Assembly: GCA_000004985.1 (NCBI GenBank)
Contig: GG738910.1
Reading direction: 5' to 3' (one strand)
DNA: 64,000 nucleotides
Source: Naegleria gruberi
Lineage: Eukaryota
Shown: positions 1-60,023 of the stretch, one piece after another
Layout: every line of letters starts with the position of its first letter
Numbering within the stretch: position 1 is the stretch's first letter
The notes under the pieces: generated by a model
What the model was told of the DNA's origin: nothing
Database searches by the model: none
The model's input: only the letters and a program-made list of their open reading frames with translations
Position numbers and translations under genes: made by a program

Positions 1-1492
1 CAAGTTGTTTTACAATCTTTGGGTAGACCTTTGAGTTTCTAGAGTGATTTCCACATAAAACTCCAAATGGCATATCTGATATAACAACATCAATGCTTTC
101 ATTTCTAAAAGGTAAGAATCTAGAATCACAATTTAAAATATGAATATTTCTGTTTTTGCTGCAATTATCCTTCATAGCACTCACTTCATCTAGATTGAAA
201 TCAATATTATAAAGTTGAACTTTAGGATCATTATCAGTGAAGAGATAATTAAGTGAGAGCGAAAGAGTACCACTTCCTGCAAATGGATCAACAAAAGTAA
301 CTAATTGTGATTGTTGGAATAATTTGTCGCGTAAAATTGAATTTTCCATCAATAAAGTTTTCCAAAGCATGTAGCTTGTTTGAGGTTTCAAGGTAGATTT
401 TCCGTAGGTTAATCTAATATCTTGTTTAGTGTATGAATAAATCAAATCACATGAATTCAATACATTCAATTCGTCCTCACTGAGATTACTATCAATAACT
501 TGATTGTTCAAAGAAAAATGTCTAATTTTCAATTCTTCTAAAGCATGTAATGGAGGGGACAATAGCATTCCTATAAACACTCTATCAATATCCAAATAAA
601 TTAAAATGTCAAGGTCATACTTTTTCAGGTTAACCTTCATGTCCTTACAAATTGTTTCTCCAATTCCGTATCCATACTCGGCGGCCATATCCATTGATTT
701 GTAGTCATGCTTCAAAATACTTGTTTGTTTTCTTACACCAGTAGCCCTAAAGTTGGTATCCTTGGAATAAAGGTTTTGTTTTTCAAACTTTTTGCAATAT
801 AATTTTTCGAATAGTTCAAAAGATTGTTTCCATGCTTGAGTATCTTGCTCTCTTTTTGGTATAGTTTCTGCAAATATTGGCATTGCAGTCTCTTTATCAA
901 AAGGTATATCAGGAACAATGCAAATAAATGAATACACAAAATCAATACTAGGAATAGCATTTAAATGGCAGACTAAATAAACTAGATTTTCCATAAATAA
1001 ATTATTATCACTTCCTTTAGAAGAAACATTAAATATTAATAATCCATTTCTAGAATATAAAAATTCAATTTCAAATAAATTAGAAAAATTAATAAATGTC
1101 ACTTTGTGACTCTCACTCAAAGTTTTTAGCTCGTTTGGTACCGAGTTTTCCACCTTTTTCATAAATTTACCAGCAATAGTTGTTGGATAATCGTGGACCC
1201 TAATTTTCGGATTTAATTTTTCATACCAATTAAATTGCAAATTTGAGTCAAAGAGTGAAAGAATTTCATCCTTCACAATTTGTTCAAAGCCATGTGTATG
1301 ACTCACAAGAAAAGTGTGTTCTTGTTTCTGTTGTTCATTTGAATGGCATGCAGACCTTGTCAAAATAGGATGATATACCTCTCCGCAATGTCCCATAGCA
1401 TCTGGTGGAAGTGGTTGTTTTTCCTTTTTCTTCTTCTTTTGTGATGAAGGGAATTTATTTTGTGTGGTATTGTTGCCTTCTTGATTTACCAT
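1..1492 (-). CDS. SAM-dependent (N-methyl)transferase with N-terminal THUMP-like region, copy A; ATG at 1492..1490, open reading frame continues past window start (3' ~190 nt missing)
   Basis: Continuous minus-strand ORF from ATG (MVNQEGNNTTQNKFPSSQKKKKKEKQP...). Motif I DPFAGSGT and motif IV DMPFG are seen in the paralogous copy at 44.5-44.9 kb. It is ~97% nt-identical to 42975-44885 but lacks that copy's 465-bp insert, frameshift and stop. It is not in the ORF track because it has no stop inside the window. Confidence 0.55.
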   Translation of the reverse strand, partial: MVNQEGNNTTQNKFPSSQKKKKKEKQPLPPDAMGHCGEVYHPILTRSACHSNEQQKQEHTFLVSHTHGFEQIVKDEILSLFDSNLQFNWYEKLNPKIRVHDYPTTIAGKFMKKVENSVPNELKTLSESHKVTFINFSNLFEIEFLYSRNGLLIFNVSSKGSDNNLFMENLVYLVCHLNAIPSIDFVYSFICIVPDIPFDKETAMPIFAETIPKREQDTQAWKQSFELFEKLYCKKFEKQNLYSKDTNFRATGVRKQTSILKHDYKSMDMAAEYGYGIGETICKDMKVNLKKYDLDILIYLDIDRVFIGMLLSPPLHALEELKIRHFSLNNQVIDSNLSEDELNVLNSCDLIYSYTKQDIRLTYGKSTLKPQTSYMLWKTLLMENSILRDKLFQQSQLVTFVDPFAGSGTLSLSLNYLFTDNDPKVQLYNIDFNLDEVSAMKDNCSKNRNIHILNCDSRFLPFRNESIDVVISDMPFGVLCGNHSRNSKVYPKIVKQL

Positions 1493-19145: not shown

Positions 19146-20312
19146 ATGTCTGAACCAACTGCTATTGATATTACTCAAATTCCACCTCAAATTCATCATA
19201 CAAAAGTGGCCTTAATTTCTGGTGTAACTGGACAGGACGGTTCTTACCTCGCAGAATTGCTCTTGGAAAAGGGATACACCGTTTACGGTATTATTAGACG
19301 TTCATCATCATTCAATACCGGTAGAGTTGAACACTTGTGTAAGGACATGCACGTTCTTTCTTCCAGTATGTTATTTAAATTCATGATTAATACTAAAATT
19401 TAGATAGGATTCAAGCTTGTTTATGGTGATTTGACTGATACTGGGAATCTTATTTCCATAATATCAAAGATTAAGCCTGATGAAATTTATAATCTCGGTG
19501 CTCAATCTCATGTTAAAGTCAGCTTTGAGATGCCTGAATACACTGCTAATGTTGATGCTGTTGGTACATTGAGAATGTTGGAAGCTATTCGTGCTTGTGG
19601 ATTAGAAAAGAAGACAAGATTTTATCAAGCTAGTACTTCTGAATTGTATGGTTTGGTTCAAGAAATCCCCCAAAAAGAAACCACTCCTTTCTATCCTCGT
19701 TCTCCTTATGCTTGTGCAAAGTTGTATAGTTACTGGATTGTCATTAATTATAGAGAAGCTTACAACATGTTTGCTTTGAACGGAATTCTTTTCAATCACG
19801 AAAGTATTAGAAGAGGACCAACATTTGTAACCAGAAAGATCACTATGGCTGTTGCTCGTATTCATCTTGGATTGCAAGATTGTTTGTATTTGGGTAATTT
19901 GGATGCTGAAAGAGATTGGGGGCATGCCAAGGATTATGTTAAAGCTATGTGGTTGATGCTTCAACAAGAAAAGCCAGCCGATTACTGTGTTGCCACTGGT
20001 GAGAAACACAAGGTTAGAGAATTTGTTGAAAAATCTTTTGCTGTTCTCGGAAGGAGGGTTGAATGGAAAGGAACACCAGGTACAGTTGATGAATACGGAG
20101 AAGTGGACGGTATTGTTAGAGTTAAAGTAGATCCTAGTTATTTCAGACCAACCGAAGTTGAACTCTTGATTGGTGATCCAACAAAGGCAGAAACTGAATT
20201 AGGATGGAACAGAAATGTTGGTTTTGATGAATTGGTGAAGGGAATGGTAGAAGGAGATGTTGAACTTTTACAAAAGGATGATGTTGAACTTGTTAAGAAG
20301 CAGTATCACTAA
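19146..20312 (+). CDS. gmd: GDP-mannose 4,6-dehydratase; join(19146..19365,19408..20312), 42-nt intron GTATGT..ATAG
   Basis: Track ORFs 19146..19403 and 19431..20312 are in the same frame, separated by a TAG inside a GTATGT...AG segment. Splicing gives ...[31 protein letters not shown] blocks seen: [62 protein letters not shown]. Confidence 0.93.
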
Positions 20313-42935: not shown

Positions 42936-45073
42936 ATGGTGCTAGAGGAATTAACAGATGCCGAAAGACCTTCATCACAAAAGAAGAAAAAGGAAAACAA
43001 CCACTTCCACCCGATGCTATGGGCCATTCGGGAGAAGTCTATCATCCTATTTTGACAAGGTCTGCAGGCTATTCAAATGAACAACAGAAACAGGAACACA
43101 CTTTTCTTGTGAGTCATACACATGGCTTTGAACAAATTGTGAAGGATGAAATTCTTTTACTTTTTGACTCATTAAATTTGATGTAATTTAATTGGTATGA
43201 AAAATTAAATCCGAAAATTAGGGTCCACGATTATCCAACAACTATTGCTGGTAAATTTATGAAAAAGGTGGAAAACTCGGTACCAAACTACCTAAAAACT
43301 TTGAGTGAGAGTCACAAAGTGACATTTGTTAATTTTTCTAATTTATTTGAAATTGAATTTTTATATTCTAGAAATGGATTATTAATATTTAATGTTTCTT
43401 CTAAAGGAAGTGATAATAATTTATTTATGGAAAATCTAGTTTATTTAGTCTGCCATTTAAATGCTATTCCTAGTATTGATTTTGTGTATTCATTTATTTG
43501 CATTGTTCCTGATATACCCTTTGATAAAGAGACTACAATGCCAATATTTGCAGAAACTATACCAAAAAGAGAACAAGATACTCAAACATAGAAACAATCC
43601 TTTGAACTATTCGAAAAATTATATTGCAAAAAGTTTGAAAAACAAAATCTTTATTCCAAGGATACCAACTTTAGGGCTACTGGTGTAAGAAAACAAACAA
43701 GTATTTTGAAGCATGACTACAAATCAATGGATATGGCCGCTGAGTATGGATATGGAATTGGGGAAACAATTTGCAAGGACATGAAGGTTAACCTGAAAAA
43801 GTATGACCTTGACATGTTAATTTATTTGGATATTGATAGAGTGTTTATAGGAATGCTATTGTCCCCTCCATTACATGCTTTAGAAGAATTGAAAATTAGT
43901 TCAGCATGTTCAGGACATGGTGGTTGCATCTCACCAAATAATTGTTCATGTGTCTCTGGATATTATGGAAGTGATTGTAGCCAATTTGATTGTTATGGAA
44001 CTGCCTCCACAAATACATCAACATGTACTAATCACGGTAGTTGTATATCCCCAAATAACTGTTCCTGCTTATCAGACTATTATGGAAAAGAGTGTACTCA
44101 ATATGATTGTTTTGGAACTATTTCAACAAATGGTTCAGTATGTTCTGGACACGGTACCTGTCTCTCACCAAATAACTGCTCATGCTTAGCTGGATATTAT
44201 GGAAATGATTGTAGTGAATTTGATTGTTACGAAACTGCCTCCACAAATGCATCAGCATGTTCTGGACATGGTGGTTGCATCTCACCAAATAATTGTTCTT
44301 GTTTAGATGGATACTACGGAAATGTTTGTAGTCAATTTGATTGTTATGGAACTGCCTCAACAAGACATTTTTCTTTGAATAATCAAGTTATTGATAGAAA
44401 TCTCAGTGAGGACGAATTGAATGAATTGAATTCATGTGATTTGATTTATTCATACACTAAACAAGATATTAGATTAACCTTCGGAAAATCTATCTTGAAA
44501 CCTCAAACAAGTTACATGCTTTGGAAAACTTTACTGATGGAAAATTCAATTTTACGAGACAAATTATTCCAACAATCACAATTAGTTACTTTTGTTGATC
44601 CATTTGCAGGAAGTGGTACTCTTTCACTCTCACTTAATTATCTCTTCACTGATAATGATCCTAAAGTTCAACTTTATAATATTGATTTCAATCTAGATGA
44701 AGTGAGTGTTATGAAGGATAATTGCAGCAAAAACAGAAATAATCATATTTTAAATTGTGATTCTAGATTCTTACCTTTTAGAAATGAAAGCATTGATGTT
44801 GTTATATCAGATATGCCATTTGGAGTTTTATGTGAAAATCACTCTAGAAACTCAAAGGTCTACCCAAAGATTGTAAAACAACTCGAAAGAATTGTTAAGC
44901 CTGATGGAATTGTAATGCTGTTGACAATTGAACTTACCTTACTGGAATCTCAACTGAATGCCAGAAATCGGTGGACATTCACAACACAAAAAGTAACACT
45001 TGGAGATTTAGGTAAGGAATCCAAGCAACCATTTACATTGGCAAGAAGAAACCTCCACAAAATAAATTTATGA
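42936..45073 (+). pseudogene. methyltransferase copy B (inverted paralog of the 1..1492 gene), disrupted by a 1-nt deletion (~42995) and a TGG>TAG nonsense (43589..43591) and carrying a 465-bp in-frame insertion; a C-terminal ORF 43706..45073 remains open
   Basis: Direct nucleotide comparison with the reverse complement of 1..1492. About 97% identity from ~42975 onward. Copy A reads through where copy B has stops. DPFAGSGT/DMPFG methyltransferase motifs are intact in the open C-terminal ORF. Confidence 0.6.
43898..44362 (+). repeat. 465-bp array of ~4 tandem 117-bp (39-aa) EGF-like/tenascin-type cysteine repeats inserted in frame into methyltransferase copy B
   Basis: Repeat unit (S/T)ACSGHGGCISPNNCSC(L/V)xGYYGxDCSQFDCYGTASTN(T/A)S, iterated about 4 times. 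First and fourth units are near-identical at the nt level. The sequence is absent from copy A, which goes straight from ...gaaaatt to agacattttt. Confidence 0.75.
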
Positions 45074-45303: not shown

Positions 45304-46399
45304 ATGATTTTCTTAGAAGCTGGAAACAAAATTATTCAAGAAATCCTTCTCAAGCAATTTGATGCTTCGTACGTATTTGATGTTTTTAGCTTGATGTTTT
45401 ACTAACAACACCACAACATTTAATCTTTAATCTATTCTTTATACTGTGTAAATTAATATAACAACAACATACCATGATTCAATTTATCATCGCTCACATA
45501 TTAACAACAAAAACAGAACAAGACAACCAAGCGTCCATGTTAACGGAGGTGATTTTGATGGTACTAAATTTGTTATTCAATCTGATGCTGGTAATAAGAA
45601 CCTTCTCACCTTGTCCATCTATGTTCATGGTGAAAAGGAATTTAATCAATATGGAGGTATTGAATTGGTCAAGAAAACTTTACCAGGATTGGATGTTAAA
45701 GCACCAGGTTTAACAGTCGATGATCAAAAACATACTTTCACAGTTACTATTGATGTTGAAAAGGAAGAAAAGAATAAGGACAAGTGGTTAAAGGAATTGC
45801 CACGTGTCAAAACTACATATATGAGTGCTGTCTTTTTGCAAGCCATGGATAAACACGCAAAGGGAGAACAATTCGAACCAATCAAAGTTCCATACAGACC
45901 AGATGAAAATATTTACATTATTTCTTATAAGGGCAAGTCTTTGGTTGTTGTTTATAGTATTTTGTTCAGAGATCCTGATGATGTCGTTTTTGCCAATGGT
46001 TTCTTGTGTGAATTCAAGGATGCCAAGAAGGATCGTGCTCTCAATGCTGCTCCAAATATGAACTTTTCACAAGGTCAATTGGCTGGTGAATTGGTTGACG
46101 TAAAGAGTGTTACTGAACCAAAGGACGAAAGAACTTTGAAGAAGGAAGGTTGGGGCTTTGTTTCTATTGGTTTGTTGGATAATCATACCAAGGCTGATAA
46201 GCAATTGAATACTGCTGAATTATTGCTTGGTTTCCGTTCATATTTGCACTACCATTTGAAGTGTATGAAGGCTTACATGCACATTCGTATGAGAGAATCT
46301 GTTGAAAAGTTAATGTTGAACTTGAATGCTGCTAAGGATTTGAGCGGTAAGAAGACTGAAAAGAAGACCATGTCTGGTAGAACTTTCAAACAACAATAA
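45304..46399 (+). CDS. arpc2: Arp2/3 complex subunit 2 (ARPC2/p34-Arc); join(45304..45368,45517..46399), 148-nt intron GTACGT..TACTAAC..CAG
   Basis: Exon 1 MIFLEAGNKIIQEILLKQFDAS matches the ARPC2 N-terminus ([23 protein letters not shown]). Exon 2 ...DFDGTKFVIQS...LSIYVHGEKEF...GFRSYLHYHLKCMKAYMHIRMR aligns with the conserved core and the RxYLHYHIKCSKAY block. The first AG after the TACTAAC branch point is the acceptor. Confidence 0.9.
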
Positions 46400-46739
46400 C
46401 TTGTTTGAGTGAGAGAACATAATGACATCAGTGTCATTCACATCTTTTTGTAGTTATAAAATCACCTTATTTATTTATTTATAATTAAGTAGACTCATAT
46501 TGATGATTATTCTCAATCATATCTTCCACATTTGTATGGGGAATACCCTAACGTTTATAAAAACAAAATACTGTTTTACATGCACAAAAGCTTGTCAAGG
46601 TTGCAACTTCTCCCTCAACTATAATATAATATGGAAACTGGATAGAAAAAAGTACTGAAATCTACATAGATTTTAAACAATGCAAATATCTAAGCAAGTT
46701 ATATTGTTCCTTAATGATATTGAGGTCTCATTCTACTTT

Positions 46740-47060
46740 TCCTTTTACTAGTTCCTCGAATTGAGACTTTTTCTCCCATCCTAATTCAGTTTCAGCCTTT
46801 GTTGTTGGGTCACTAATAAACTTGTGTTGCAGGTCTGAAAGTTTTCATTCCTTTGTATGGCCCAATCTCTTTTGAACAGCCCTACAAATCAAAGAGTACA
46901 CCGTATGGTAAGATTAAGAAAAAGGCCAAAATTCTCAAAGATCTCACGCCCACTCCTTCTCGTCCCTCGTTCAAGCTTAGTAGAGGATCGGACCGTCCGT
47001 ACCTGATCATATCATTTCCTCATTCCATGCTCCTAGCCGACTTTGGGATGTTGAAATGTC
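46740..47060 (-). pseudogene. decayed fragment of a second GDP-mannose 4,6-dehydratase gene (C-terminal ~100 codons) with frameshifts and stops
   Basis: Minus-strand translation gives ...[29 protein letters not shown], versus ...[31 protein letters not shown] in the intact GMD at 20.2 kb. Upstream pieces seen: FRPATQVY ([13 protein letters not shown]) and REIFENFGLFLN ([15 protein letters not shown]), read in shifted frames. The region is locally GC-rich. Confidence 0.6.
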
Positions 47061-47145
47061 CAAGTCTGCCTTAATACCACTCCCTTCAATTCAACAAACA
47101 GATCATAGGCTTAAAAAATCAAGTTTCTTGAAATTAACTACAAAC

Positions 47146-48683
47146 ATGAAAGAAAAAATGCAAAAGAATCAATTGATTATCACGTTGGTTGTCTTATTGA
47201 GTGTGGTCGCTTGTACTGTCTATGGTTTCTCAGCTAATCCATGCACATTCTGTCAAACAAGTTTTGATATGGTTGCTACAGATAAGAGTAAGTATGATAT
47301 TTCTTTTTGAATGGTCATGAACTCGTTGCATGAATAATCCATTCAATCCTCAACCGATTAATCCAACTCCAGTGAAGCAATTAGTTCCTCCAGTTGCTCC
47401 ACAAAACGCAAGTGAAACTGCCATCTTTTCTGATAGTAACGGAAATGCCACAACTAATAGTTCTTCGATCTTGAATGGCACCTTGGTAACTTCACACTCA
47501 ACTCAACTCATAGTCTTCATATTAATGGAAGCATTGAACACGCCAACGGTTCTATTACAGTTGGTAATTTGACCTTTGAAGGTGATTTCCATGCCAGTGG
47601 AATTATTGCCATGATTAATGACTCTTTGATTGTTGATGGTTCATCTTTAATCAATGGTTCAATTGATCACGGATTGATTCAAGTAAATGGTAGTGTTGCT
47701 TCTAATGGTTCCTTAATGATTTCCATCTCAACTTGGTTCTCTAATGGGTCTCTCTTAATTAATGGATCGTTCGATACTGATGAAGGAAATGCTTTTGAAT
47801 TGAATGGTACTTTGGGTCATAGTGGTGGTTTCGTCTATTCAAACCAGTCTTGGAACACTAATGGTTCCTTGACCATTCAAGGTGATTTGATTCTTCCTTC
47901 CATGGACGAATTCAGTGGTACTCTTCAAGTTAATGGTACTGTTAATTCCTCAATCAGTGGTGATTTGAGCATCATCGGTTCCATGCTTTTAGATGGTTCT
48001 TTCAATGGAAATGAAACTGATTTCAACATGAACGGTATTTTGACACACAACGGTTTGTTCTTCCAAGATAATGAAACTGTTCACATTGCTGGTTCATTGG
48101 TTTTTGAAGGTAACATGTCTCCCATCCAACAACTCACTTAATGGAACTGCTGTTATCGATGGTACCATGAAATCCTCAGATGGTCAATTGTATATTAATG
48201 GTTCAATGATTATCAGTGGTACATTCTTGAGTAATGAAAATCTTGAATTGAGTGGTTATTTGGCTAATAACGGTTCATTCTTAATTGATAACTCCTCCAT
48301 GACAAGTAATGGTTCTCGAAATGACTGGTACCATTTCATTGCCATGCTCAACCTTAATTGATGGTAATTTGACTGTCAATGGTAACTTGAACTCAACAGT
48401 TGGAAGTATGTTAACTATCAATGGAACTACCCATGTTAATGGTAACTTGACATTGAGCCATGCCTTACTCATCACTGGTAACTTGACAATTCACGGAACT
48501 GTTCATTTGAATAACACAAATGTTGCAATCATTGTTCAAGGGGGCGATTTCACATCTGTTGGTGGTATTGTTGCTAATAACACTGCTGATGGTGCTTTGA
48601 GAGCTGACAATGTTTTAACTTTCATGAATATTACTGATATGACTTTCACTAGTATCAAGGTGAAGAGTACAATGAAGTAATTG
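47146..48683 (+). pseudogene. secreted Asn/Gly/Ser-rich beta-helix-like repeat protein gene, interrupted by at least three frame changes (possible pseudogene or sequence errors)
   Basis: Signal peptide MKEKMQKNQLIITLVVLLSVVACTVYG, then possible intron GTAAGT (47288) to AG (47372). The same repeat family (..NGSLxIxGxL.., dense N-x-S/T sequons) then continues through four consecutive track ORFs (47330, 47569, 48071, 48309) that each use a different frame. The switches fall at a CTCAA microsatellite, a CCC run and near TCTCGA. Confidence 0.45.
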
Positions 48684-58889: not shown

Positions 58890-59868
58890 TTTGGCGCCAC
58901 GAGTTGTTTTTCTGTGGTTGATCTTGACCAGTAGGGTTTGTTGTTGTTTGATTAGAGTTTCAATTTAGAAAATAGCTTTAAATTCATCACGGAATTGTTG
59001 AAGAGGAGGTTGAGCATTTTCTTTTGATGTTTGAATTTGATTGAATGAGACTATTGGCAGAAATCGATCAAGTTGAATTGACTACTTAACAAATGGAATC
59101 AACTTTAAAGATTTCCCTCCTAGTATAGCAATCTATTGGAGCGTGAAAGAGGCTGCTTCATTGTACCCATGTTCAAGCAATTAAGTTTCTTAATATTTCT
59201 CTGAACCATCCTCAAAACTCCTTAATTCTCCTGGATAGTGGAGTTTGATCAATCGTACAAGGATTACTCCCTTAATATAGCTCTGCATTTCCATCCCAAT
59301 TTGGCGCCAATAACAGTAAAAAAAATGGCGCCAACAAGTAGAGTTCCATTAACTCTTCAGACAAAAACTTTCGAGTTACCATCATACAATGATTGTATCA
59401 ATATTATTCCAGAAAGTCTACTACAATGTTCTTTTAAGTGTTTGTATTAAATCTCAACAACCATCAAAAAGTCTCAACATTTTTCCTTTCTCACCAATTC
59501 AATGAAGAGATTTTCCCAAATATTCAAAATAGAAAAAATCTATTAATAATCTTATTGTTTAGAATTGTTTCCAACACGTCACATAACATGACCATTTGTG
59601 ACATTTTTAATGTTTGATTGCTTTGTAAACTTTCAAGAATCCATTAATAGTGAGACAGAGATGAAAATATTCAATATCAACAACGTTACTAACAAAGCCA
59701 TTGCTTTATCCCACTTTCCAATGGCTCACCACCACAACAATATTATGAACAACTCTCTCAGGCACAATACCGTATTTCAGCTGTACTTCCCACCAAAATC
59801 ATCATCGCTACAAGGATGCCTTCAATTTGATAATGTGTGTTCTACTTCTCATCTAATAAGGCGCCACT
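58890..59868. promoter_or_regulatory. divergent intergenic region with four GGCGCC-core palindromes resembling E2F sites (TTTGGCGCC at ~58890, TTTGGCGCCAA at ~59300, ATGGCGCCAAC at ~59326, AAGGCGCCAC at ~59859; coordinates approximate)
   Basis: TTTGGCGCCAA is the classical palindromic E2F element. GC hexamers are rare in this AT-rich intergenic DNA. The region lies between the 7TM-RGS gene and the cyclin gene. Confidence 0.3.
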
Positions 59869-60023
59869 GGAACCTGCTAATGTGTAGCCAACGATTCGAG
59901 TACGTGTTGACAAACGTGGCTGAGTGCGAAGTTGTTTCTGAAAGGAGAAGGGGATCGCAACAACTTTGCTGTTGGTCATCATTTAAAAAAAAAATTGCCG
60001 TACAATTTTATCCGCAAAGTACA

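What the first reader, a model, noticed from the sequence alone, without database searches (positions are those of the whole stretch)
46740..47060. Relic of a second GDP-mannose 4,6-dehydratase gene
On the minus strand the sequence translates to [29 protein letters not shown]-stop. This matches the C-terminus of the intact GMD at 20.2 kb ([31 protein letters not shown]). Further upstream are fragments (FRPATQV, REIFENFGLF) in shifted frames. It is a decayed paralog about 26 kb from the fucose cluster. It also explains a local GC-rich island that otherwise looks like a small RNA gene. Together with the duplicated methyltransferase it marks 42.9-48.7 kb as a zone of segmental duplication and gene decay.
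Basis: seen in the sequence. Interest (0 to 1): 0.6.

Follow-up and report, generated by a model that had tools for sequence, protein, structure and literature searches.

The report
Dead GMD gene fragment beside transposon-like scrap
A short, broken copy of the tail end of the amoeba's own GDP-mannose dehydratase gene really does lie here, but it is ordinary genomic debris at a rearrangement breakpoint, and the GC-rich patch next to it is a scrap of a different gene.

Summary
The window is Naegleria gruberi nuclear DNA. On the minus strand, 46726-46841 is homologous to the last part of the intact GMD coding sequence (20144-20257): tblastn E=4e-7, blastn 76% identity E=3e-10, and a local score of 96 against 25.7±4.7 for shuffles. 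The FRPATQV piece belongs to it and is joined through an 8-nt deletion that shifts the frame. The copy is dead. It has that frameshift, a GGA->TGA stop and two 3-nt insertions, and its own substitutions fall evenly over codon positions (7/4/7). Only about 116 nt is recognisably GMD, or about 147 nt if a weak 24-nt piece (p≈0.01) is included. Nothing else upstream or downstream exceeds chance. REIFENFGLF is not GMD. It is the antisense reading of a second relic on the plus strand (46898-47058), which matches N. gruberi protein XP_002681148.1 at 50 of 51 residues. That protein resembles endonucleases only weakly. This second relic, not GMD, accounts for the 50% GC island, and no RNA gene is supported there. 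Both scraps sit in the ARPC2 downstream spacer, exactly where synteny with a related Naegleria ends. Four related ARPC2 loci carry no GMD sequence. The methyltransferase duplication is much younger (96-98% identity) and separate. This is an ordinary pseudogene fragment of low interest.

The parts
46726..46841 (-). Core GMD-derived fragment, homologous to GMD 20144-20257 (YFRP...KGMVEGD). Aligned sites are 76% identical, including a 29/30-nt block CAACAAAGGCTGAAACTGAATTAGGATGG.
46818..46818 (-). Site of the 8-nt deletion relative to GMD (GTT[GAACTCTTG]ATT becomes GTT-T-ATT). It shifts the frame between FRPATQV and ISDPTT. The flanking 3-nt insertions are GCA at 46828-46830 and a duplicated ACA within 46800-46805.
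   Evidence: manual codon alignment
46728..46730 (-). TGA stop codon where GMD and all its relatives have a Gly codon (GGA/GGC/GGT; GMD 20253-20255).
46849..46872 (-). Possible second GMD piece: AAAGAGATT-GGGCCATACAAAGGA against GMD 19909-19933 (encodes ERDWGHAKD). It is collinear and on the same strand. If real, it implies an internal deletion of about 210 nt. Marginal.
   Evidence: p=0.002 to 0.018 by shuffles, 0.011 by genomic control; family HMM -0.8 bits, not significant alone
46898..47058 (+). Second, unrelated relic that makes the GC-rich island. It is a fragment of the gene family of N. gruberi XP_002681148.1 (NAEGRDRAFT_46456), residues ~497-561: YGKIKKKAKILKD / LTPTPSRPSFKLSRGSDRPYL / PDHIISSFHAPSRLWDVEM. 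50 of 51 residues are identical, with a 27-nt in-frame deletion and a 10-nt frameshifting deletion.
19146..20312 (+). Intact parent gene, GDP-mannose 4,6-dehydratase, two exons with one intron near the 5' end. 82% identical to N. lovaniensis GMD over 99% of its length.
45611..46399 (+). Last large exon of ARPC2 (p34-Arc), intact, 100% identical to the N. gruberi protein. Its stop codon marks the end of synteny with the related Naegleria contig L002.
47146..48680 (+). Downstream neighbour, a gene for a protein with a signal peptide and NGS/NGT repeats. Its start codon lies 88 nt after the second relic.
   Evidence: read from translation; gene model not verified

Best explanation
The feature is a non-functional fragment of Naegleria gruberi's own GDP-mannose 4,6-dehydratase coding sequence. 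It covers roughly the last 38 codons before the C-terminal tail, about 116 nt and perhaps about 147 nt. It lies in reverse orientation in the ~750-bp spacer between ARPC2 and a secreted repeat-protein gene. It arose in the N. gruberi lineage after the split from the N. lovaniensis/N. fowleri group, when a piece of GMD sequence was copied into this spacer. The spacer is a synteny breakpoint. The fragment has since drifted neutrally and now carries an 8-nt frameshifting deletion, a Gly-to-stop change and two 3-nt insertions, with substitutions spread evenly over codon positions. Within about 25-55 nt of it lies a much younger scrap of a different N. gruberi gene (XP_002681148.1, weakly similar to endonuclease/exonuclease/phosphatase domains of non-LTR retrotransposons). 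That scrap is the GC-rich island. Shown here: the homology, its extent, the lesions, the relaxed constraint, the lineage of origin, the absence from related loci, and the identity of the GC island. Inferred: that the fragment does nothing; that it was inserted already truncated, for example as filler DNA during break repair or rearrangement, rather than being the last remnant of a complete paralogue; and that the second relic comes from a mobile element.
For: Homology to GMD: tblastn E=4e-7, blastn E=3e-10, nucleotide score 96 against shuffles 25.7±4.7, family HMM E=1.8e-4, and Pfam PF16363 as the only family hit. Extent: neither flank exceeds chance at nucleotide level (downstream 113/300 and upstream 159/300 shuffles do as well) or at frameshift-tolerant protein level. 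Lesions were read directly from the alignments. Relaxed constraint: changes unique to the relic fall 7/4/7 over codon positions (uniform, p=0.61), against 5/4/26 and 2/0/12 between functional GMDs (Fisher p=0.017 and 0.012). Origin within the lineage: among 121 GMD C-termini the local GMD and its closest relative P0005 score best. The relic is 24% diverged from N. gruberi GMD and from L005 GMD, but 36-39% from N. lovaniensis (L006) and L007. It shares 12 derived sites with N. gruberi plus L005 only. Absence elsewhere: no GMD-like sequence lies within 5-8 kb of ARPC2 in N. fowleri (L001), two metagenomic Naegleria (L002, L003) or Willaertia magna (L004). Breakpoint: collinearity with L002 runs from the methyltransferase to ARPC2 and stops at the ARPC2 stop codon. 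N. fowleri and L003 have a NamZ gene downstream instead. Second relic: it is the only hit among 1.84 billion representative proteins, E=1.4e-5. tblastn gives E=2e-14 and 1e-7, and the source protein is from N. gruberi.
Against: The marginal second GMD piece at 46849-46872 (p about 0.01) would imply a longer original copy with an internal deletion. That fits a decayed longer paralogue better than a fragment that was short from the start. Changed codons are 10 nonsynonymous to 7 synonymous, against a neutral expectation of 79% nonsynonymous (one-sided p=0.044). This is a faint hint of some past constraint, although several of these calls depend on uncertain ancestral states. Transcription and small-RNA status could not be examined, so lack of function is inferred and not shown. 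The rest of the N. gruberi genome was not searchable (searches found nothing on record). Other copies of this fragment, or a mobile element carrying it, therefore cannot be excluded.
Confidence: 0.8

Rival explanations
1. This is the last remnant of a complete second GMD gene. A full-length paralogue was once here, perhaps functional for a time. Deletions then removed or scrambled everything but the 3' end.
For: A possible collinear second piece matches the conserved ERDWGHAKD region, which would imply a longer original copy (p about 0.01). Nonsynonymous changes are mildly fewer than expected (p=0.044). Compact genomes tend to lose dead DNA by deletion (general knowledge).
Against: No other GMD-like segment is found in 46840-47400 or anywhere else near it. 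The space upstream is occupied by an unrelated relic and then by the next gene's start at 47146. Four related ARPC2 loci lack any GMD sequence. Relic-specific changes are uniform over codon positions.
Confidence: 0.2
2. This is a composite retrotransposition product. A non-LTR element related to XP_002681148.1 inserted here, and a second priming event (twin-priming-like) copied the 3' part of GMD mRNA in inverted orientation. That would give antisense GMD joined to a sense element fragment.
For: The two relics lie 25-55 nt apart in opposite orientation. The 3'-most GMD sequence is on the outside and the 5'-most is at the junction, which is the topology expected of twin priming (topology reasoning from general knowledge of L1 biology). 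The source protein has weak hits to PF03372 and PF14529, the 'Endonuclease-reverse transcriptase' family.
Against: The ages disagree. The GMD piece is 24% diverged from its parent, while the element piece matches its parent at 50 of 51 residues. No poly(A) tract, no target-site duplication and no reverse-transcriptase sequence were found. The element piece stops 79 codons before the end of the source protein. The Pfam hits are below the gathering thresholds, there is no PDB sequence match, and the structure model was unusable.
Confidence: 0.07
3. The fragment is functional. One option is a coding exon or micro-ORF on the minus strand. The other is a source of RNA antisense to GMD mRNA, produced when the plus strand is transcribed (ARPC2 read-through or the 5' leader of the downstream gene).
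For: A 30-codon open frame survives. A pyrimidine-rich stretch ending in AG (tttattag) lies just before it. A 29/30-nt block, including 19 consecutive identical bases, is retained against GMD.
Against: No upstream minus-strand exon or ORF with any family match exists. The substitution pattern is neutral, and there is a stop at a conserved Gly and a frameshift within the homologous segment. My own estimate is that a 29/30 block in a 114-nt alignment at 74-76% identity arises by chance at roughly p=0.1. No Rfam family matches and there is no unusual RNA structure.
Confidence: 0.03
4. The similarity is chance, or it comes from a different short-chain dehydrogenase/epimerase gene and not from GMD.
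For: The D-P-x-K-A-x-x-x-L-G-W motif is common to many extended SDR enzymes (general knowledge). Two unrelated metagenome contigs share the 24-nt motif.
Against: The match holds at nucleotide level against this genome's own GMD and is far beyond shuffles. The local GMD ranks first among 121 GMD C-termini. The relic shares lineage-specific nucleotides with N. gruberi and L005 GMD.
Confidence: 0.01

Closest known systems
Pseudogene fragments (truncated duplicated pseudogenes) in eukaryotic intergenic DNA
   Same: It has significant homology to a functional parent gene in the same genome. It carries disabling lesions (a frameshift and a premature stop). Its substitutions follow a neutral codon-position pattern. 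It lies in a spacer at a rearrangement breakpoint.
   Different: It is very short, about 116 nt. It lies in a compact protist genome where such debris is presumably rarer than in animals or plants. It is not known whether it was truncated on arrival or cut down later.
GDP-mannose 4,6-dehydratase (Pfam PF16363, extended short-chain dehydrogenase/reductase)
   Same: The fragment aligns to the last ~35 profile positions (296-330 of 332). It shares the lineage-specific residues [13 protein letters not shown] and ELVKG-VE with the N. gruberi enzyme.
   Different: It lacks the Rossmann fold, the catalytic residues and about 85-90% of the protein. It scores below Pfam's threshold and its reading frame is interrupted. 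It is derived from the family but is not a member enzyme.
Processed pseudogenes, and chimeric or twin-primed insertions mediated by non-LTR retrotransposons
   Same: A 3'-biased fragment of a cellular gene lies beside a fragment of a gene with weak similarity to retrotransposon endonucleases. The two are in inverted orientation.
   Different: No poly(A) tail, target-site duplication, 3' UTR homology or reverse-transcriptase sequence was found. The two pieces differ greatly in divergence from their parents. The retrotransposon nature of the neighbouring fragment's parent gene is unproven.
Filler DNA captured during double-strand-break repair or chromosomal rearrangement
   Same: Short scraps of unrelated genes, in mixed orientation, lie exactly where gene order differs between related species.
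   Different: No junction microhomologies or ancestral empty site could be examined, because the closest relatives' spacers are not alignable.

Membership tests
GDP-mannose 4,6-dehydratase (functional enzyme, PF16363) | Whole-protein match to PF16363 at or above the gathering score (27 bits) | tested here: not met
   18.2 bits for the 30-aa frame and 23 bits after joining FRPATQV across the frameshift. Only profile positions 296-330 of 332 are covered.
GDP-mannose 4,6-dehydratase (functional enzyme, PF16363) | N-terminal Rossmann NADP-binding region (GxxGxxG) and catalytic Thr/Tyr/Lys region present | tested here: not met
   Nothing upstream of 46841 resembles GMD residues 1-313 beyond chance. 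The intact gene has these regions ([10 protein letters not shown]).
GDP-mannose 4,6-dehydratase (functional enzyme, PF16363) | Uninterrupted reading frame | tested here: not met
   There is an 8-nt deletion at about 46818 and a TGA at 46728-46730 in place of a conserved Gly.
Pseudogene fragment derived from the resident GMD gene | Significant nucleotide and protein homology to a functional parent gene in the same genome | tested here: met
   blastn E=3e-10 and tblastn E=4e-7. The local GMD is the top scorer among 121 homologues.
Pseudogene fragment derived from the resident GMD gene | Disabling lesions and relaxed selective constraint | tested here: met
   A frameshift and a stop are present. 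Relic-unique changes fall 7/4/7 by codon position, against 5/4/26 in functional lineages (Fisher p=0.017). Caveat: the codon-level nonsynonymous to synonymous count is 10:7 (p=0.044 against neutrality).
Pseudogene fragment derived from the resident GMD gene | Not expressed as a functional product | not testable with these tools
   No transcriptome or proteome data were available.
Processed (retrotransposed) pseudogene | Poly(A) tract at the 3' end and flanking target-site duplications | tested here: not met
   There is no A-run after the homologous segment on the minus strand. No flanking direct repeats rise above chance-level short matches.
Processed (retrotransposed) pseudogene | Homology continues through the parent's 3' UTR; parental introns are absent | tested here: inconclusive
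   Similarity downstream of GMD position 20257 is not above chance. The only GMD intron lies far outside the retained segment, so intron loss cannot be judged.
Small non-coding RNA gene (for the GC-rich island) | Match to a known RNA family, or a structure more stable than shuffled sequence | tested here: not met
   Rfam gathering search of the whole window gave 0 hits. A permissive search of 46400-47200 gave only two chance-level hits, E=1.8 and 8.4. No tRNA was found. Folding z-scores were +0.87 and +0.91.
Non-LTR retrotransposon fragment (for the GC-rich island) | Homology to an element-encoded endonuclease or reverse transcriptase recognised at curated thresholds | tested here: inconclusive
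   The fragment is nearly identical to part of XP_002681148.1. That protein reaches only E=6e-4 on PF03372 and E=3e-3 on PF14529, both below gathering scores. It has no PDB sequence match, and its structure model was too poor to use (pLDDT 38). tblastn with that protein found no other copy in the window. Copy number in the genome could not be measured.

The most novel reading that the evidence does not exclude
The reverse-oriented GMD scrap lies between two plus-strand genes. It could be transcribed as part of ARPC2 read-through or of the downstream gene's leader. That RNA would carry a 29/30-nt stretch complementary to GMD mRNA and could feed the amoeba's RNA-interference machinery to tune fucose-nucleotide synthesis. 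A second option is that the antisense-GMD / sense-element junction is a fossil of twin-priming-like retrocopying in a heterolobosean.
Probability: 0.04. Interest if true: 0.45.

Novelty: new member of a known kind. Interest (0 to 1): 0.1.

Why it matters
It matters little beyond annotation. The result stops this stretch being called a second GMD gene or a small RNA gene. It shows that the ARPC2 downstream spacer of N. gruberi is a rearrangement breakpoint that has collected scraps of at least two genes. It also gives a small dated marker: the copy was made after the split from the N. fowleri/N. lovaniensis group, at about the time N. gruberi separated from the organism of contig L005. If the neighbouring scrap proves to come from a retrotransposon, the locus would be one data point on how gene fragments get moved around in Naegleria.

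Tried and rejected
A frameshift-tolerant protein-DNA alignment, nucleotide local alignment and a 121-sequence family HMM on six-frame pieces all gave chance-level scores. REIFENFGLF is the antisense reading of another relic.

(2) I tested for extension into the GMD C-terminal tail and 3' UTR. It is not above chance, although MAFFT aligns some AT-rich sequence there.

(3) I tested the GC island as an RNA gene. Rfam at gathering and at E<=10, tRNA search and folding were all negative.

(4) I compared the island with the only other comparable GC peak in the window (59861). There is no similarity.

(5) I looked for an orthologous relic or intact paralogue near ARPC2 in N. fowleri, two metagenomic Naegleria and Willaertia. 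None was found.

(6) The protein database search with the 45-aa relic peptide found no candidates, because of the word filter.

(7) I tried to retrieve the N. gruberi loci themselves. Exact look-ups found nothing on record, so genome-wide copy number and existing gene models could not be checked.

(8) Metagenome scans: the element pattern gave 0 hits. The GMD-motif pattern gave 3 loci, one an unrelated full GMD at 55% identity and two with only short motif-level matches. None is an orthologue of the relic.

(9) Classifying XP_002681148.1 by PDB sequence search and AlphaFold was uninformative.

(10) The bacterial promoter/terminator scan is irrelevant for a eukaryote.

(11) A quick script to bridge the frame changes of the downstream repeat gene with introns was mis-framed, and I abandoned it.

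Full report
**Organism and setting**

The window is eukaryotic and 34% GC. Its ARPC2 exon (45611-46399) is 100% identical to the annotated Naegleria gruberi protein. The intact GDP-mannose 4,6-dehydratase (GMD) gene at 19146-20312 has one 5' intron. It is 82% identical to N. lovaniensis GMD and 78% to Willaertia magna GMD. The finding lies in the ~750-bp spacer between the ARPC2 stop (46399, plus strand) and the start of a plus-strand gene at 47146. That gene encodes a signal peptide followed by NGS/NGT repeats.

**Check of the observation**

The quoted minus-strand peptide is present exactly as written. Several independent measures show it is homologous to the GMD C-terminus:

- tblastn of GMD against the window gives 21/37 identities and E=4e-7, while the next hit has E=0.047.
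- blastn of 46400-47200 against the window finds one non-self hit, GMD 20179-20257, at 76% identity and E=3e-10.
- The local nucleotide score of the core is 96, against 25.7±4.7 for dinucleotide shuffles with a maximum of 43.
- An HMM built from 121 GMDs scores the open piece 46844-46731 at 18.4 bits, E=1.8e-4. It is the only significant piece in the window outside the gene itself.
- Pfam gives only PF16363, at profile positions 296-330 of 332. The score is 18 bits alone and 23 bits when FRPATQV is joined on.

A frameshift-aware alignment confirms that FRPATQV is part of the same homology.

**Extent**

The homology covers 46726-46841, matching GMD 20144-20257. Neither flank exceeds chance:

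- Downstream (46400-46725 against the GMD tail and 3' flank), 113 of 300 shuffles score as well.
- Upstream (46840-47150 against the rest of the CDS), 159 of 300 shuffles score as well.
- A frameshift-tolerant protein alignment of 46840-47400 against GMD residues 1-316 scores 36.5, below the shuffle mean of 43.
- The family HMM finds nothing further.

One marginal exception is a 24-nt stretch at 46849-46872. It matches GMD 19909-19933, which encodes the conserved ERDWGHAKD. The match is collinear and on the same strand, with p=0.002 to 0.018 by shuffles and 0.011 by a genomic control. If real, it implies an internal deletion of about 210 nt.

**State of the copy**

Relative to GMD and three related GMD genes (L005, L006 = N. 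lovaniensis, L007), the copy has four lesions:

- a 3-nt insertion after the Pro codon;
- an 8-nt deletion at about 46818 that shifts the frame;
- a duplicated ACA codon;
- TGA at 46728-46730 in place of a conserved Gly codon.

The 18 substitutions unique to the relic fall 7/4/7 over codon positions. Functional GMD comparisons give 5/4/26 and 2/0/12 (Fisher p=0.017 and 0.012). This is the pattern of neutral drift. One small contrary hint exists. Of 17 changed codons, 10 are nonsynonymous, against a neutral expectation of 79% (p=0.044). It rests on few sites and on inferred ancestral states.

**Origin and age**

Among 121 GMD C-termini, the local GMD and its nearest relative P0005 score best against the relic. 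Divergence at aligned nucleotide sites is:

| Compared with | Divergence |
|---|---|
| N. gruberi GMD | 24% |
| L005 GMD | 24% |
| N. lovaniensis GMD (L006) | 39% |
| L007 GMD | 36% |

Twelve sites are shared only by the relic, N. gruberi and L005. So the copy was made from the resident gene lineage. It postdates the split from the N. lovaniensis group and dates to about the time N. gruberi and the L005 organism separated.

No GMD-like sequence lies near ARPC2 in N. fowleri (L001), two metagenomic Naegleria (L002, L003) or Willaertia (L004). L002 is collinear with the window from the methyltransferase through ARPC2, and the collinearity stops at the ARPC2 stop codon. N. fowleri and L003 have a NamZ gene downstream instead. 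The spacer is therefore a synteny breakpoint.

**The GC-rich island**

The stretch 46930-47040 is 49.5% GC, in the top 0.06% of 110-nt windows here. The GMD core is 38% GC and its parent segment 41%. The island lies outside the GMD homology, so GMD does not explain it. It is not a recognisable RNA gene either:

- Rfam gives no hit at gathering thresholds over the whole window.
- Rfam gives only E=1.8 and 8.4 hits at permissive settings.
- There is no tRNA.
- Folding is no better than shuffles.

I searched the plus-strand open frame 46820-47071 against 1.84 billion representative proteins. It gave a single hit, P0140, at E=1.4e-5. P0140 is N. gruberi XP_002681148.1 / NAEGRDRAFT_46456, encoded on another scaffold. 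tblastn of P0140 against the window gives E=2e-14 and 1e-7. Three blocks are matched, YGKIKKKAKILKD, LTPTPSRPSFKLSRGSDRPYL and PDHIISSFHAPSRLWDVEM, with 50 of 51 residues identical. They are separated by a 27-nt in-frame deletion and a 10-nt frameshifting deletion.

The island is therefore a young scrap of a different gene, on the opposite strand from the GMD scrap.

P0140 has only sub-threshold Pfam matches to endonuclease/exonuclease/phosphatase families, including PF14529 'Endonuclease-reverse transcriptase' (E=6e-4 and 3e-3). It has no PDB sequence match, and the structure model was unusable. A retrotransposon origin is plausible but unproven.

**Mechanism**

The best-supported reading is that a piece of GMD sequence was copied into a spacer that has been a site of rearrangement, and has since decayed neutrally. 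Later, a scrap of a second gene landed or was left beside it.

Whether the GMD piece arrived already truncated or is the stump of a longer copy cannot be settled. The absence of further pieces and of any copy in relatives favours a fragment. The marginal 24-nt piece and the mild deficit of nonsynonymous changes favour a longer copy. A retrocopy origin lacks its hallmarks: no poly(A), no target-site duplication and no 3' UTR homology. A twin-priming-like composite with the neighbouring element fits the topology but not the very different divergences of the two pieces. Function as an exon or as an antisense source is not excluded. The lesions and the neutral pattern argue against a coding role, but they say little about an antisense RNA role.

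**The wider 'zone' claim**

The methyltransferase duplication is real. 42969-43899 and 44363-44883 match 1450-522 and 523-3 in inverted orientation at 96.0% and 97.7% identity. A block of four 117-nt EGF-like repeats is present only in the 43.7-kb copy. This duplication is far younger than the GMD scrap. It ends 1.8 kb away, and an intact ARPC2 gene lies in between. These are separate events and do not form one zone.

**Comparison with what is known, and verdict**

This is a pseudogene fragment, a well-known kind of object. It is derived from the GMD family but fails every test for being a GMD enzyme. It is most likely undescribed as an individual locus and is unremarkable. Interest is low. 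The useful outcome is a corrected annotation of 46726-47058: two unrelated gene scraps, no second GMD gene and no RNA gene.

Noticed in passing
window 3-1450 (minus) and 42969-44883 (plus): There is an inverted, near-identical duplication of a methyltransferase (UPF0020/RMKL-like) gene, 96.0% and 97.7% identical in two blocks about 41.5 kb apart. The copy at 43.7 kb carries an extra 465-nt block of four tandem 117-nt EGF-like repeats (43899-44363). That block is absent from the copy at the window's left edge and from the orthologue on related contig L002. The left copy runs off the window.
   Followed up: partly
window 46399-46402 / L002 4549-4552: Gene order shared with a metagenomic Naegleria contig (methyltransferase then ARPC2) ends exactly at the ARPC2 stop codon. 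The downstream neighbour differs in three lineages: an NGS-repeat gene in N. gruberi, a WD40 gene in L002, and NamZ in N. fowleri and L003.
   Followed up: partly
window 47146-48680 (+): The gene for the signal-peptide plus NGS/NGT-repeat protein reads through four overlapping open frames, with frame changes near 47480-47570, 48070-48140 and 48310-48360. Only one obvious GTAAGT intron is present, at 47290. It has either unrecognised short introns or frameshifts, so it may itself be decaying. My attempt to bridge the frames with introns was flawed.
   Followed up: no
window 47056-47058: The ATG that ends the XP_002681148.1-like scrap (the M of WDVEM) is in frame with the downstream gene's start at 47146, with no stop between them (ORF 47056-47310). 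It could provide an upstream start codon or a leader ORF for that gene.
   Followed up: no
window 59861-59970: This is the only other 110-nt stretch in the window reaching 50% GC. It lies about 50-160 nt upstream of a likely start codon (MARQQRTNSS..., about 60023) and is followed by an A-run. It has no sequence similarity to the 46.9-kb island.
   Followed up: partly
window 19146-20312: The protein database search with the spliced N. gruberi GMD returned N. lovaniensis (82%) as the best hit and no N. gruberi entry. Other N. gruberi proteins (ARPC2, XP_002681148.1) are in the same database.
   Followed up: no
L010 5508-6569 (contig Ga0114970_10000035, 73.8 kb): A 28% GC metagenome contig carries a full GMD gene 55% identical to the N. 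gruberi enzyme. It shares the exact 24-nt AARGCWGAAACTGAATTAGGATGG motif. Its origin was not examined.
   Followed up: no
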